Below are positions 8,349-62,110 of a stretch of DNA of 64,000 nt, piece after piece. The DNA is taken from NCBI GenBank assembly GCA_951406725.2, contig OX597823.1, positions 17,794,001 through 17,858,000 on the forward strand, written 5' to 3'. The position numbers were made by a program, and so were the translations under genes. The DNA comes from Octopus vulgaris (Eukaryota). The notes under the pieces were generated by a model. The model made no database searches, was not told the DNA's origin, and worked only from the letters and a program-made list of their open reading frames with translations. Each line of letters starts with the position of its first letter. The first letter of the stretch is position 1.

Positions 8349-8545
8349 TTTAAAAGCAGCAGAAATTTAACAAAAGTTGTTACTCGGAGTTTAACAAAAC
8401 TCTCTGATGAACGGGAACATGAAACTCCGAGTAACAGCTTTTGTTAAATTTCTGCTGCTTTTAAATAAAGCATATTACTCTACCTCTGGTATTTGAGTAC
8501 TCTTTTTTTCCACCTTGTTTCACATTTATGTATTTACTCTGGTAT
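8349..8545 (+). mobile_element. Fold-back Penelope-like fragment with hammerhead motif (8400-8437)
   Basis: Arms 8349-8392 / 8422-8465; loop CTGATGA-acgggaacat-GAAAC-TCCGA-GTA; related fragment reversed at ~25265-25341. Confidence 0.7.
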
Positions 8546-9025
8546 ATATATATATATATATATATATATATATGAGTGTATGTATGCATTTACATATGTT
8601 TGTATATATGTATACATATTCACAGGCATATATTTACATAAATATATATTCCGGTATATATTTGTATGTATCTATCTGTCTGTCCCTATATAGACATGTA
8701 CCATCAACATCATCATCATCGTTTAATGTCCGATTTCCATGCTGGCATGGGTTGGACAGTTCGACTTATGTCTGGAGAGCCAATGGCTGCACCAGGCTCC
8801 AATCTGATCCGGCAATGTTTCTACAGCTAGGGCGCCTTTCCTAATGCCAACCACTCTGAGAGTGTAGTGGGTGCTTTTTATGTGCCACCAGCACAGGAGT
8901 CAGTGAGGCAGGCCTGGCATCAACCATGGCAGCCAGTCAGAGGCCTGGCATCGGTCACGTTCGGATGGGGCTTTGTACACACACACACACACACACATAA
9001 ATATCAAATATTAGGGTATCTCTGT

Positions 9026-9431
9026 TACTCTTTTACTTGTTTCAGTCATTTGACTGCGGCCATGCTGGAGCACTGCCTTTAGTCGAGCAACTCGACCCCG
9101 GGACTTATTCTTTTTGTAAGCCCAGTACTTATTCTATCGGTCTCTTTTTGCCGAACCGCTAAGTGACGGGAACGTAAACAAACCAGCATCGGTTGTCAAG
9201 CAATGCTAGGGGAACAAACACAGACACACATACACACACACATACATATATATATATACATATATACGACAGGCTTCTTTCAGTTTCCGTCTACCAAATC
9301 CACTCACAAGGCATTGGTCGGCCCGGGGCTATAGTAGAAGACACTTGCCCAAGATGCCACACAGTGGGACTGAACCCGGAACCATGTGGTTGGTTAGCAA
9401 GCTACTTACCACACAGCCACTCCTGCGCCTA
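9026..9431 (-). mobile_element. SINE A, full length
   Basis: Reverse complement of the family A sequence. Confidence 0.9.
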
Positions 9432-10931
9432 TGTATTTGTCCTAATTTCTTTTTTTTTTTTTTCTCAATGACAACTGTTCATGGGTTCCATTTTAAGAAC
9501 ACTGTCTTTTCTCTCTTTCTCTTTCCTTAGATCTTTTTCTCCTGTGTCTGTTAAATGTTATAAAATTATCATATCAAAAATAATAGCATCATAAGGCAGG
9601 GCTGCAGTGATTACATAGCTATGACACAGAGAAGAGGGTGGAGGTTTGTTTTCATAAGGAGACAGCGTTTTGTCTTAACCATGACATACAAATATAATAT
9701 ATATATATCTATATGTATATGTGTGCACATACATATATATATGCATGTGTAAATATATATATATATATATGTATGTAGGTATGTATATATATATATATGT
9801 GTGTGTGTGTATAGTCATATTCCCTGGAGACATATATATATGTATGTGTGTATATATATATATATATATATATATATATATATATATATACATACATATA
9901 TATATATATATATCAAGGGAAAATGACTTGAGGAAAGAGTAAAATAAACAACTGTTTTCTTTAGCTTATATCAAGCAGCTGTGAAAAGATTTTGAAGTTT
10001 CTAGAAGTTTAAGATAGTGGAAGCTAAATATGTTAATGTGTGTGTTTTTGTGCGTGTGTGTGTGTGTGTGTGTGTGTGTGTGTGTGTGTGTGCTTGAACA
10101 TGTGTAGATTTTGTTAATATAAAAGAATGTTTGTGTAAATCTATTTTTGAATATATTTAAAATATAGAAAGTATGTTTAATGGGAGCAATTGAGCAAAAT
10201 GGAGCTATGTAAATGAACACATAGACATATGTTACATGCACACATATATATGTGTGTGTATGTGTTTGTGTGTGTGTGTGCGTGCATATATATATATATG
10301 TGTGTGTGTATATATATATATATATATATATCTATGTATATATCTATACATATATATACATACATATATATATATATATATATATATATATATATATACA
10401 CACACACACACATATATATATATGTATGTATTTATGTATATATGTATGTATACTGACATGTATGTGAATGTCATTGAAAAATTGTTTCAACGCAAAAGCC
10501 CAGCAGCGATGAGGGGAAGGGTTTAGTTTAGCCCTCGTACTTGACTGAAATTTTATATTATTAACCCTGGAGGGATGAAAAGCAAAATTATGCTTTATGA
10601 GATTTGAACTCAGAGTGTAAAGAACTAGATCATTTTTCTTACATGTTCTAATGATTCTGCTAATCCACTGCCTTATATGCCACATGAAAATGTAAAGATG
10701 TGTGTGTATGTGTGGGCATGTATGTGTATGTACACACACACATATATATATTTATACACATACACATACACACATCAGTTGATAAATGTGTGTGGTAAAC
10801 ATACGCCAAATTAAAGTAAGATCCATATGAAAATATTGGCAGATATCTGGGACAGTACAGCTACTGCTGGTACTCTGTACACACAAATATCCTTAATGAC
10901 AAGGTCATTTGGTTGATATGTAATAATTCAA

Positions 10932-11146
10932 AGGTGGCGAGCCGGCAGAAATGTTAGCACGCCGGGTGAAATTCTTAGCAATATTTTGCCTGTCTTTACG
11001 CTCTGAGTTCAAATTCCACTGAGGTTGACTTTACCTTTCATCCTTTCAGGGATGATAAATTAAGTACCAGTTGCATACTGGGTTCGATCTAATCGACTGG
11101 CCTCTTCCCCAAAAATCTCAGGCCTTGTCTCTAGAATAGAAAAGGA
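10932..11146 (+). mobile_element. Meta/MESC-domain SINE (family B)
   Basis: GAGTTCAAATTCC B-box followed by GACTTTACCTTTCATCCTTTCAGGGATGATAAATTAAGTACCAG Meta-like core. Confidence 0.85.
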
Positions 11147-58956: not shown

Positions 58957-60469
58957 CTGATAGGGCAAAACGGAGAACCAACCAATATTATTATTAAGTC
59001 AGAAATACTTCCACATCAAGGCAAAAAGAAGAAGAAAAAAAAAAATTAGCAAAAAAATATTCAAACAAATAAAAAAAATAATAAGCAGACAAAAAGGGAA
59101 GAAAGAAAGAGAAGATGAAGAGAAAGAGAAAGAAAAAAATGTGGTAGGCAATAATGGTGGTAGTGGGTGATGGTAGTGATGATGATGGTGGTAGCAGATG
59201 TGGTGGTGTGGTGATAGTACTGATGAATATGCTGGTGGTGGTGGTGGTGATGATGATGGTGGCGGTGTTGCTGCTGTTGATGGTGGTGGTGGTGGTGGTG
59301 ATAGTGGATTAGTTGGAGGGTGGGGTTTTTTATAGGTGGGGGGAGAGAAAGCAGGCAGGTGGCGGTAAGAGGGGGTGGATTCTGGGGTTTTGGGGGGAGG
59401 TGGGAGCTGGGGTGAAGGCATGGTGTTTTCTTTAAAGAAAATAAGAAAGAAGGGTGGAAGATCTTAGCTATAATTAAAGTCAGTCCGGAAACTCACATTA
59501 TGAAATCACTAAGAATTTTATTGTAAAGAAATGAATTTAATAATAATAATAATAATAATAATAATAATAATAATAATAATAATAATAATAATAATAATAA
59601 TAATAATAATGATAATAATAATGATAATTGATGTTGTTTCTAATTTAGGCAATTTTTGAGGGGAGGGGCTAGTGGACACTGTCAACACCACTACTTGACT
59701 GAAACTTTATTTTATCAACCCCAAAGGGATAAAGGCAAAGTTCAGAGGGATTTCAACTCGCCAGATTAAAATTTTGACACTTTATTAATTCTGCTTATCC
59801 TTCGTCTCAAGATTTGCAAAAGAAGAAAATTATGCAAAGAAGGAAAACTGCTGATTATATCAACTCCAGTATTTGACACTGATACTTCATTTTATCAAGT
59901 CCCAGATAAAAAAAAAAAAAAAAAAAAAAATTTTCAGTGTGATTTGAACTCAGAATGTAAAGGGACATAACTAAATATTGCAAGACAATCATCAGTCTCA
60001 CACTAATGGCTCTGCCAGTCCATGAAATTTCTTATTACACAGCCATGCACATGCCTATATGATGATGATGATGATGATGATGAGGAGGAGGAGGAGGAGG
60101 AGGAGGAGGACAATGACGATTCCTAGCTCTGGTGTGAGGCCACAAATTTTGGTGATGGTGTAAATGATGACGATGATGATGATAATAATAACAACAACAA
60201 CAACAACAACAATAATAATAATAATAATGATAATAATAATAATAATACAGTTTTATAGTTTCATAGTTTTTCAAATTTTCAAAAACACCCCCTTCACCTT
60301 ATGGTTCCACCTCCCGGAGCAGACTACTTGATGGTAGGTGGGGTGTAAATAAAAGAATTTTGATACCCTGGTAGTGGTAGAGGTGGTGGTGGTGGTGGTG
60401 GTGGCGGCGGCGGTGGTGGTGGTGGTGGTGGAGAAGTATTATAAAGATAAGGGGTATCTGGAATTAGAG

Positions 60470-61020
60470 GAGGAATGAAATTTGAGAGAGAGAGAGTTTT
60501 TGAAGAGAATGATAAAAAAAGAAAGCTTGTGAGAGCCAGAAAGTGAGGGAGGGGGAGAGAGAGAGAGAGAGAAGAAGGAGGAACAAAGAATGAGAGATGA
60601 AGAAAAAGAACATTGAGAAATATAGAGAAGAAGGGAGAGAGAGAGAGAGAGAGAAAGAGAGAGATAGAGAAAGTGTATAAGAGAGGGGTAGAAGTGACGT
60701 AGTGGTGCTGATGGTGGAGAGGGAAGCGTGAAAATGAAAGTAGGGAAATATAGAGACTAAGTGAAAAAGTGTAGGAGAGAGAGAGAGAGAGAGGGGGAGA
60801 GAGGGAGAGAGAGAGAGAAAGAGAGAGCATAGGCAAGTAATAGAGAGTGTGTAATAGGCAAATATCATTAGAGAAAGAGAAAGAATGACAGGTAAAGAAA
60901 AGTAAAAGAAGAGAGGGAAAGAAAATGAAGGAAAGAAAAATAAAAAGAGAGAGAGTGTGATAGAGAGAGAGAGAGTGATAGAGAGAGAGAGTGAGAGAGA
61001 GAGAGAAAGAAGAAGTATGT
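60470..61020. promoter_or_regulatory. Long polypurine (GA) tract upstream of the putative gene
   Basis: ~550 bp of GA-rich sequence; regulatory role is inference only. Confidence 0.3.
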
Positions 61021-62058
61021 GTGTGTGTGTGTGCATTTATTAGAAGAATTAAAAGGAAGAAAGCAAGATTGATAAGTTGATGAGGAGATTTGGTTAACTT
61101 TAGGAAGGGAAGCAGATAGGAAATGTCTTAGTTTAATAAGACTGTCACACACACACACACACACACACACACACACACACACACACACACACACACACAC
61201 AGACTTTGTCTCTCTCTCTCTCTCTCTCTCCCAATAATCCTAACCCCCCCCCACCGGCTCCACATTCCTCACCACCTTCCCCATCATGTAAAGAAACAAA
61301 TTAGGCTTACTTAGCTATTCCTTGACTCTTTGATAGAAGTAACAGTTAACTTACATAAACTACACCCCACCACCACCACCACCACCACCACCACCACCAC
61401 CACACTTCCTGCAAGCAGCCAGTGAGGGATCCTCAACATGGCCACTTGCTTTACTAGAAACAGCAGCTAAATGTCTTTCGAAATCTCTCACTACCATCTT
61501 GAAAAACAAAAGGACGCATGTACAAATAGCTAGGGTGGTCATGGCTGAGCTGCAGCTAAATAACAACAATTCCTCTTCCAGGTCTGTCCTTGCCCCATCA
61601 TGAACCTTTCACTCTTTTTCTGCTTATCTTTCTGTTTCTCCCTCTCTCACAAACTCATAATCTATCTATCTATCTATCTATCTATCTATCTATCTATCTA
61701 TCTATCTATCTATCTATCTATCTCTGTCTTTCTCTCTGTCTCTATCATTCTCTCTTTCCCTTAGACTCTCATTTTAGTCCTCTTGTTTGATTCACACTCA
61801 ACGTAATTCTACTGTACATATATATACACATATATACATATACATATATGTGTGTGTATATATATATATATATATTTTAAATGCTGTTGGATTTTTCTCA
61901 AAAGGTATTGGAATTTTACATATATACCATTCTGCCTAAAAAAATGGATCTACAAATTCAATATCCCTACATATCTCACATCTATTTTCTTTCCTCCACC
62001 TCACTCTCTATTTCGAATCCAATCTAAATTAATTATTACTTAACCATCCTCTCACACC

Positions 62059-62110
62059 GTCTCCGATGAAGGGATATAATTAATAAATATCCTGGAAACA
62101 GCTGTAAGAC
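62059..62110 (+). ncRNA. Minimal type-I hammerhead motif (U4C variant)
   Basis: GTCT-CCGATGA-AG-GGATAT/ATATCC-TG-GAAAC-AGCT-GTA-AGAC; host element 61920-62175 homologous to 48715-48915. Confidence 0.65.

What the first reader, a model, noticed from the sequence alone, without database searches (positions are those of the whole stretch)
8349..62110. Several unrelated mini-elements each carry a minimal hammerhead ribozyme
Seen: type-I hammerhead layouts (stem I - CUGANGA - stem II - GAAA - stem III - NUH - stem I') at 8400-8437, 13132-13172, 20644-20706, 48817-48862, 54190-54248 and 62059-62110, with weaker relics at 11849-11914, ~29630-29693 and ~34141-34170. Stem sequences differ completely between families while pairing is kept (stem I ATTCCA/TGGAAT, AGATAA/TTATCT, GTCT/AGAC, ACAC/GTGT). 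Stem III is tiny and (near-)palindromic (ACAGCTGT, AACGTT, ACT-CCG-AGT, ATCC-A-GGAT). Established: Penelope-like retroelements and retrozymes carry such minimal hammerheads, which can cleave as dimers. Inference: at least five separate ORF-less ribozyme-bearing families co-occur in 64 kb, suggesting a large, probably poorly catalogued set of non-autonomous Penelope/retrozyme-like elements in this lineage.
Basis: partly seen in the sequence, partly recalled or inferred. Interest (0 to 1): 0.78.

Follow-up and report, generated by a model that had tools for sequence, protein, structure and literature searches.

The report
Hammerheads from truncated Penelope retroelements
The hammerhead-shaped motifs are real and are mostly the leftover 3' ends of ordinary protein-coding Penelope-like retrotransposons, a known arrangement; one ~500-base family without a gene likely borrows these elements' enzymes, and ribozyme cutting is predicted, not tested.

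Summary
The motifs are real: a relaxed scan gives 7 hits against 0.38 in shuffles. Only 4 of the 6 main sites and none of the 3 relics pass as intact hammerheads. The reading 'five ORF-less non-autonomous families' is mostly wrong. Longer genomic copies show that families A (48817, 62059), B (8400) and D (20644) are 3' ends of three autonomous Hydra-clade Penelope-like elements (D has an intact 717-aa ORF), and C (13132) ends a Penelope/Poseidon-type element. Copies have variable 5' ends, two fixed 3' ends and inverted head-to-head pairs with the 'tail' on one arm, the known PLE signature. The hammerhead layout matches published Hydra-clade ribozymes, and an Octopus Hydra element is already described. 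Only E (54190) is ORF-less: a ~505-nt unit in partial tandems with the same tail signature, retrozyme-like. Small novelties: a U4C core in the Hydra families (all 27 young D copies with the motif) and a tRNA-like segment in C's 3' UTR. Cleavage and circular RNA were not testable. New members of a known kind.

The parts
236..298 (+).
   Evidence: Only hit of the strict scan; one 79% relative in L125
8347..8392 (-). Family B inverted 5'-truncated arm, short 3' end (no tail), abutting (TA)n
8391..8543 (+). Family B forward copy: decayed hammerhead (8400-8437) plus ~70-nt tail, then (TA)n; 3' end of a Hydra-clade PLE
11767..11830 (-). Family G inverted arm
11835..11961 (+). Family G forward copy, decayed hammerhead (core at 11849); consensus has Hydra-type layout; old family
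   Evidence: a Hydra-like EN lies upstream in 1 of 18 copies
13040..13126 (-). Family C inverted arm; holds the intact GAAACGUU half, lacks CUGAUGA
13125..13230 (+). Family C forward copy with broken GAAA; 3' end of a Penelope/Poseidon-type PLE whose 3' UTR carries a tRNA-like segment (not present in this copy)
20460..20603 (-). Family D inverted arm with the ~70-nt tail, abutting (TA)n
20616..20743 (+). Family D forward copy, intact hammerhead 20644-20706 with U4C core (CCGAAGA); 3' end of a young Hydra-clade PLE with a 717-aa ORF
24303..24519 (+).
29630..29693 (+). Relic: only GAAACAGCTGTAAGA matches family A; no intact 5' core; unassigned
34090..34258 (+). Family H copy ending at (TA)n; core broken at A6 across the family
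48693..48880 (+). Family A copy, hammerhead 48817-48862; 3' end of an older Hydra-clade PLE with a 0.9-1.6 kb simple-sequence 3' UTR
54068..54496 (+). Family E: circularly permuted ~0.85-unit copy of a ~505-nt ORF-less unit, hammerhead 54190-54248, long (tail) 3' end, then (TA)n
61904..62166 (+). Second family A copy, hammerhead 62059-62110 with U4C core

Best explanation
Sites A, B, C and D are the 3' ends of four protein-coding Penelope-like retrotransposon families, likely left by reverse transcription that stopped early, and site E is a ~505-base gene-less unit that is likely inserted by the same kind of enzyme. Mechanism: the PLE RT-GIY-YIG protein nicks AT-rich DNA (Hydra clade: (TA)n) and starts cDNA at one of two internal RNA sites 40-110 nt apart, downstream of the hammerhead (shown for an anole PLE in PMC11167929; inferred here from two fixed 3' ends). 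Most cDNAs stop within a few hundred bases, so the hammerhead, which lies close to the start sites, is over-represented as short ORF-less stubs. A second copy often joins head-to-head, giving MITE-like hairpins with the tail on one arm (shown in sequence). The hammerheads are predicted to fold best as strand-swapped dimers in the Hydra families and E, and would cut tandem or read-through transcripts weakly, perhaps with protein help (inferred, untested). Most window copies are neutrally decaying.
For: D: upstream of two copies lies a GIY-YIG C-terminus; 27 of 30 loci found with that protein carry the D hammerhead ~190-270 nt after the ORF end; L201 holds a 717-aa ORF with RWK, DKT, CxCx5C, CxxC and CxH, the Hydra diagnostics of PMC8557442 section 11, and by eye close to Hydra-1_Obim. 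A: 15 of 30 EN-bearing loci have the A hammerhead region downstream on the same strand. B: L241, L250, L255, L262 are collinear over 1.2-1.4 kb from a Hydra EN to the hammerhead. C: L063 has RT (Pfam RVT_1 37.9 bits, cut-off 29.6) and EN upstream; 24 of 83 sampled copies have a same-strand PLE protein hit within 1.7 kb. Tail on one arm only in 18 of 19 (B), 11 of 13 (D), 24 of 28 (C) inverted pairs; TA-run at the 3' end in 67 of 73 (B), 46 of 64 (D), 23 of 62 (A), 4 of 89 (C). Published Hydra hammerheads have the same layout (actc-N-gagt, acag-NN-ctgt, extra base before gaa; File S2). E: 3' ends at ~203 (32 of 96 pieces) and ~311 (25 of 96), 5' ends spread round the unit, 23 of 96 pieces at least 0.95 unit long; double-hammerhead equals the cofold minimum for A and E copies.
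Against: ORF-linked copies of A, B and C were found by searches aimed at upstream sequence, so the fractions are not genome rates; non-autonomous sub-lineages inside these families are not excluded. No intact ORF was seen for A, B or C. P0001 has no Pfam hit; clade calls rest on motifs and by-eye comparison, with no tree. For E no partner element was found, and 1 of 66 copies (L270) has an internal Hydra RT fragment 1.5 kb upstream. For C the dimer is not favoured over monomers in the energy model, and for D and B a non-catalytic cofold is lower than the double hammerhead. No cleavage or RNA-end data.
Confidence: 0.88

Rival explanations
1. All five families are independent non-autonomous ribozyme-bearing mini-elements (retrozymes or SINE-like).
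For: The window encodes no PLE protein (tblastn of six PLE queries empty); most genomic copies are short; E is ORF-less with partial tandems; in C, 11 of the 26 copies that reach the tRNA-like segment end within -12..+6 of its start.
Against: A, B, C, D continue into RT/EN ORFs in longer copies; their 5' ends vary and most junctions are inversion points; the C tRNA-like segment sits ~30 nt after the ORF stop.
Confidence: 0.07
2. Family E is the 3' end of an autonomous PLE with a tandemly duplicated pLTR whose ORF-bearing copies were not sampled.
For: Only 60 loci from two searches (40 scored of 2297 and of 1262 candidates) were examined; Hydra-type hammerhead and tail; one locus has a Hydra RT fragment upstream.
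Against: Copies that extend furthest upstream run into the unit's own downstream sequence and a previous hammerhead (L272, L282, L288); the same walking found ORFs quickly for B.
Confidence: 0.25
3. The hairpins are MITEs (DNA transposons) and the hammerhead motifs are chance or irrelevant.
For: Long terminal inverted repeats flanked by TA.
Against: Arm lengths and junctions differ between copies, arms are asymmetric by a fixed tail, single-arm copies are common, cores and stems are kept in every consensus except H, 0 of 100 shuffles match.
Confidence: 0.02

Closest known systems
Hydra clade of Penelope-like elements, incl. Hydra-1_Obim (Craig et al. 2021, PMC8557442; passages, section 11 and parts of the supplement read)
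   Same: C-terminal EN with CxCx5C linker, CxxC/CxH, RWK and DKT motifs; (TA)n targets; inverted 5'-truncated copies; hammerhead with 8-9 nt palindromic stem III and extra bases beside stem II. Family B closely resembles the Hydra-2_aMil hammerhead.
   Different: Three (perhaps four) further families; D's hammerhead differs from Hydra-1_oBim's; cores read CCGA (U4C), whereas all 26 Hydra rows in File S2 read ctga (their descriptor asked for it); 3' UTRs of A and B are 0.9-1.6 kb of simple sequence.
Minimal hammerheads of metazoan PLEs (Cervera and de la Pena 2014, PMC4209133; parts 1-2 of 4 read)
   Same: Thousands of single or opposite-strand copies read as truncated PLEs; many consensus families per genome; unpaired base after A9; palindromic core (family C: ACGU); U3-A8 variant (family I).
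   Different: Nothing essential; octopus not seen in the parts read.
Non-LTR retrozymes (Cervera and de la Pena 2020, PMC7229834, passages; Li et al. 2026 preprint 10.64898/2026.07.22.740005, part 1 of 5 and passages)
   Same: Family E is ORF-less, AT-rich, head-to-tail, one type I hammerhead per unit; the preprint argues retrozymes derive from PLE pLTRs.
   Different: Unit ~505 nt (published 150-450 bp); at most two hammerheads per locus seen; Hydra-type hammerhead; shows the PLE two-end tail and inverted pairs ('tail' occurs 0 times in the preprint's main text); circular RNA not shown.
Penelope/Poseidon PAc of Anolis (Frangieh et al. 2024, PMC11167929; parts 1-2 of 4 read)
   Same: Minimal hammerhead, ~40-nt tail between two RT start sites, AT-rich but non-microsatellite targets (family C).
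   Different: Family C carries a tRNA-like segment and (AAT)n between ORF stop and hammerhead.
Schistosoma Sm-alpha SINE-like hammerhead repeats (review passages, PMC6765202)
   Same: Promoter followed by a hammerhead, as in short family C copies that start at the tRNA-like segment.
   Different: In C this cassette is part of an autonomous PLE's 3' UTR; Pol III transcription untested.

Membership tests
Penelope-like elements (A, B, C, D) | RT plus C-terminal GIY-YIG ORF upstream of the hammerhead | tested here: met
   D intact 717 aa; A, B EN ends; C RT and EN in broken copies; Y-G, R, H of the EN align across five families
Penelope-like elements (A, B, C, D) | Variable 5' truncation, inverted 5'-truncated partner, tail on one end | tested here: met
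   18 of 19 (B), 11 of 13 (D), 24 of 28 (C); A inconclusive for the tail (reference too short), 9 inverted pairs
Hydra clade (A, B, D) | CxCx5C linker, CxxC and CxH around E/N, no CCHH | tested here: met
   Read in translations, against PMC8557442 section 11
Hydra clade (A, B, D) | RWK and DKT motifs in the RT N-terminus | tested here: met
   Met for D; not examined for A and B, where no N-terminus was recovered
Hydra clade (A, B, D) | Insertion into (TA)n | tested here: met
   67 of 73 (B), 46 of 64 (D), 23 of 62 (A) versus 4 of 89 (C)
Hydra clade (A, B, D) | Canonical CUGANGA hammerhead core | tested here: inconclusive
   Layout matches File S2 but U4 is mostly C: D 41 CCGAAGA vs 6 CTGAAGA of 65; B 39 CCGAYGA vs 13 CTGAYGA of 73; A 20 CCG, 4 CCA, 18 CTG-ATGA of 48
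Hydra clade (A, B, D) | RT phylogeny within the clade | not tested
   Only a by-eye comparison with Hydra-1_Obim
Penelope/Poseidon clade (C) | C-terminal EN with no Zn-finger linker; minimal hammerhead | tested here: met
   Translations; ACGU stem III; EN has no Pfam hit; no tree made
Non-LTR retrozyme (E) | No ORF | tested here: met
   Longest stop-free frame 95 aa of low complexity; 1 of 66 copies with a PLE fragment upstream
Non-LTR retrozyme (E) | Head-to-tail units each with a type I hammerhead | tested here: met
   Two hammerheads in tandem in L272, L282, L288; no longer multimer among 96 pieces
Non-LTR retrozyme (E) | Unit of 150-450 bp with canonical loop-loop hammerhead | tested here: not met
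   Unit 505 nt; Hydra-type layout; loop-loop contacts not examined
Non-LTR retrozyme (E) | Self-cleavage and circular RNA | not testable with these tools
   Needs bench work or raw stranded reads
tRNA-derived SINE (C) | tRNA head as fixed 5' end of a non-coding element | tested here: not met
   Segment lies inside an autonomous element's 3' UTR; Rfam tRNA 14 bits vs 29; ARAGORN 0 genes in 7 loci; A and B boxes seen by eye

The most novel reading that the evidence does not exclude
Family E is a gene-less ~505-nt ribozyme circle parasitic on Hydra-clade Penelope elements: with thousands of copies, more-than-unit insertions, two fixed reverse-transcription start sites and inverted pairs, it would be direct structural evidence that animal retrozymes are integrated by PLE enzymes. 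Beside it, the most abundant young Hydra family has fixed an attenuating U4C core, and a Poseidon-type element has captured a Pol III tRNA-like promoter that could spawn PLE-driven SINEs.
Probability: 0.55. Interest if true: 0.5.

Novelty: new member of a known kind. Interest (0 to 1): 0.3.

Why it matters
The main finding is ordinary: truncated PLE ends with hammerheads in thousands of copies have been described since 2014. It matters practically because these stubs look like MITEs, SINEs or miRNA hairpins and will be mis-annotated. Three side results would interest PLE and ribozyme specialists. E links retrozymes to PLE integration by structure rather than by co-occurrence. A young, very abundant family (21214 first-look candidates) with a U4C core offers a natural test of whether PLE hammerheads need to cut (U4C lowers activity in vitro per PMC3088659; cleavage was dispensable for insertion in vitro per PMC11167929). 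Family C may show how a PLE could give rise to a SINE.

Tried and rejected
Rfam over the window: no hammerhead in the 150 rows shown of 465, only microsatellite-driven miRNA models below their gathering scores. Pfam on 142 of 488 complex ORFs of the window: only a Mos1 HTH at 44407-44685 passes a cut-off; no host exon found. Pfam GIY-YIG search of the genome returned Neptune/Nematis-type families with U3-A8 hammerheads, none the parent of A-E. Family C was first read as a tRNA-SINE and rejected when the ORF was found upstream. Its 5'-end pile-up (11 of 26; L063 there is an internal deletion, not an end) has a rival cause, a natural hairpin at the same place. E unit against A, B, D 3' regions: only simple-sequence matches. 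Sequencing runs for E: no RNA holder listed. Contigs of four runs whose RNA status is a guess cover 26-27 of 29 bins and six joints go back 482-502 nt; this fits genomic tandems as well as circles, and shows neither expression nor cleavage. Lunse et al. 2017 on PLE hammerhead variants was not available, so U4C in PLEs may be in print there. Literature searches; none of the listings showed an octopus hammerhead survey or a tRNA-bearing pLTR, but the library lacks most subscription journals and Repbase; the preprint's supplements were not seen. Earlier findings of this scan: none. The 19353-19410 scan hit has no relative among the loci and may be chance. In one search two loci were fetched twice (L046=L273, L054=L267) and not removed.
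Full report
Setting. The window lies at G000:C10:17794001-17858000 of a 2.80-Gb genome. It is 37% GC, rich in microsatellites and has no convincing coding exon: of 142 ORFs scanned (of 488 complex ones) only a Mos1 HTH passes a Pfam cut-off. The SINE-like repeats look like octopus SINEs (recalled), and the family D protein is by eye close to the published Hydra-1_Obim. 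I read it as an octopus genome and did not try to identify it further.

Observation. The nine sites exist. A strict descriptor passes none of them and finds a tenth at 236-298. A descriptor relaxed to allow U4C, U3-A8 and one unpaired base on each side of stem II finds 7 sites against 0.38 +/- 0.60 in 100 shuffles, none reaching 7; it was tuned after seeing the families. It passes 20644, 48817, 54190, 62059, the new 236 and 24383, and an unsupported 19353. 8400 and 13132 are decayed copies; at 13132 GAAA is lost and the quoted AACGTT lies on the inverted arm. The better test is family consensus. DNA searches of the genome gave 1305 (A), 2297 (E), 1597 (C), 23 (D), 2437 (B) and 560 (G) first-look candidates, of which at most 40 each were scored. 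Consensuses restore complete hammerheads with unrelated stems for A, B, C, D, E and G. The 34141 family has A6 replaced throughout, and 29630 stays unassigned.

What the families are. Walking upstream decided this. D: two copies run into a GIY-YIG C-terminus. That protein has 21214 first-look candidates, with the 150 scored 93-100% identical; 27 of 30 fetched loci have the D hammerhead about 190-270 nt after the ORF end, and L201 holds an intact 717-aa ORF. It shows RWK, DKT, CxCx5C, CxxC and CxH and no CCHH, the Hydra-clade diagnostics (PMC8557442 section 11). It has no Pfam hit. A: a Hydra-type EN lies upstream in L204; of 30 loci found with it, 15 have the A hammerhead region downstream on the same strand, 447-1600 nt away. 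B: four loci are collinear for 1.2-1.4 kb from a third Hydra EN to the hammerhead. The A and B EN fragments are 32% and 38% identical to D's, so these are separate families. C: L063 and L069 carry RT and EN without a Zn-finger linker; after the stop come ~30 nt, a tRNA-like segment, (AAT)n and the minimal hammerhead. 18 of 30 loci chosen by the ORF-end plus tRNA-like query also show the hammerhead by pattern, and 24 of 83 sampled copies have a PLE protein hit upstream. G has a Hydra-like EN upstream in 1 of 18 copies. These fractions come from targeted searches and are not genome rates.

Family E is different. Its upstream sequence is its own downstream sequence: L272, L282 and L288 hold two hammerheads in head-to-tail order, with a unit of 505 nt and no real ORF. 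Among 96 mapped pieces, 3' ends cluster at ~203 (32) and ~311 (25) nt after the hammerhead start, 5' ends are spread round the unit, and 23 pieces are at least 0.95 unit long, up to 749 nt (two loci counted twice). Only 1 of 66 copies has a PLE fragment upstream, an internal RT piece 1.5 kb away beyond an inverted copy. The window copy, 54068-54496, is a permuted 0.85 unit ending at the long end before (TA)n. No partner element was found.

Integration signature. In inverted head-to-head pairs one arm has the short 3' end and the other the long one in 18 of 19 (B), 11 of 13 (D) and 24 of 28 (C) pairs; a TA run follows the 3' end in 67 of 73 B, 46 of 64 D, 23 of 62 A and 4 of 89 C copies. Craig et al. 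describe inverted 5'-truncated partners, one-sided tails and TA targeting by Hydra. Frangieh et al. show that the tail is the stretch between two internal RT start sites. Cervera and de la Pena describe thousands of single and opposite-strand minimal hammerheads as truncated PLEs, and the U3-A8 variant. File S2 of Craig et al. lists Hydra hammerheads with the same long palindromic stem III and extra bases, including an Octopus element.

How it likely works. Shown: the anatomy, the ORF links, the two 3' ends and the inversions. Inferred: target nicking at AT-rich DNA, internal RT initiation just downstream of the hammerhead and early termination, which leaves many short hammerhead-bearing stubs; trans-mobilisation of E from a tandem or circular RNA by a Hydra-type enzyme. 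Predicted: dimer cleavage. The strand-swapped double hammerhead is 11-16 kcal/mol more stable than two monomer hammerheads for the A, B, D and E reference copies and equals the cofold minimum for A and E. It is not favoured for C, and competing folds are lower for B and D. Published PLE hammerheads cleave poorly, and in the anole element only with protein.

Small novelties. (1) U4C: all 27 young D copies with the motif read CCGA, as do most B copies; CCA variants in A and B point to an ancestral CCG decaying at CpG, while an older D subfamily has U4. All 26 Hydra rows of File S2 read ctga, but their descriptor required it. U4C is known from a viroid as a low-activity variant. I could not read Lunse et al. 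2017. (2) The tRNA-like segment of C scores only 14 bits in Rfam and is not called by ARAGORN. 11 of 26 copies that reach it end at its start, which fits Pol III transcripts or a local hairpin. (3) Family E as above.

Verdict. Observation partly confirmed, interpretation partly supported. These are new members of known PLE clades plus one retrozyme-like non-autonomous family. Interest 0.3; the E reading has probability 0.55 and would deserve about 0.5.

Noticed in passing
window, whole: All 7 hits of the strand-symmetric hammerhead scan lie on the + strand; on the - strand only core-less arms and tail pieces were seen (B 25242-25341, E 62577-62692). It may be chance (two-sided p about 0.016) or purging of sense-oriented ribozymes from an intron of a minus-strand gene; no host gene was found.
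   Followed up: partly
window 26931-27093: Inverted pair of a common family with CTGAAGAAGGGG but no downstream GAAA; longer copies (L135, L139, L144, L157) show a structured upstream region. Not a type I hammerhead; possibly another structured RNA.
   Followed up: partly
window 5532-5977, 25029-25244, 29998-30200, 48880-49050, 49387-49504, 7920-7999: Further long hairpins, several flanked by (TA)n, with the look of inverted PLE stubs but no recognised hammerhead; they give false miRNA matches in Rfam.
   Followed up: no
L206 1164-3509 (G000:C16): Young Neptune/Nematis-type PLE with many intact 781-aa ORFs, a possible upstream 333-aa frame, and a U3-A8 hammerhead (UUGAUAA ... GAAACAUGU) ~0.9 kb after the stop.
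   Followed up: partly
window 34090-34258 and L005, L016, L097, L137, L148, L213: Family H spread with a core broken at A6 in all copies seen, suggesting a PLE end that moved without a canonical ribozyme.
   Followed up: partly
L201 4742-4800: In young D copies CCGAAG of the U4C core is complementary to CUUCGG in loop II, and the monomer minimum-energy fold sequesters the core; a possible off-switch.
   Followed up: no
window 44145-44833 and 44795-45259: Decayed mariner-like element (Mos1 HTH, Pfam PF17906) next to what looks like the C-terminal fragment of an RTE-type LINE (family label recalled).
   Followed up: no
window 12856-12914: Second, short 3' fragment of family G.
   Followed up: no
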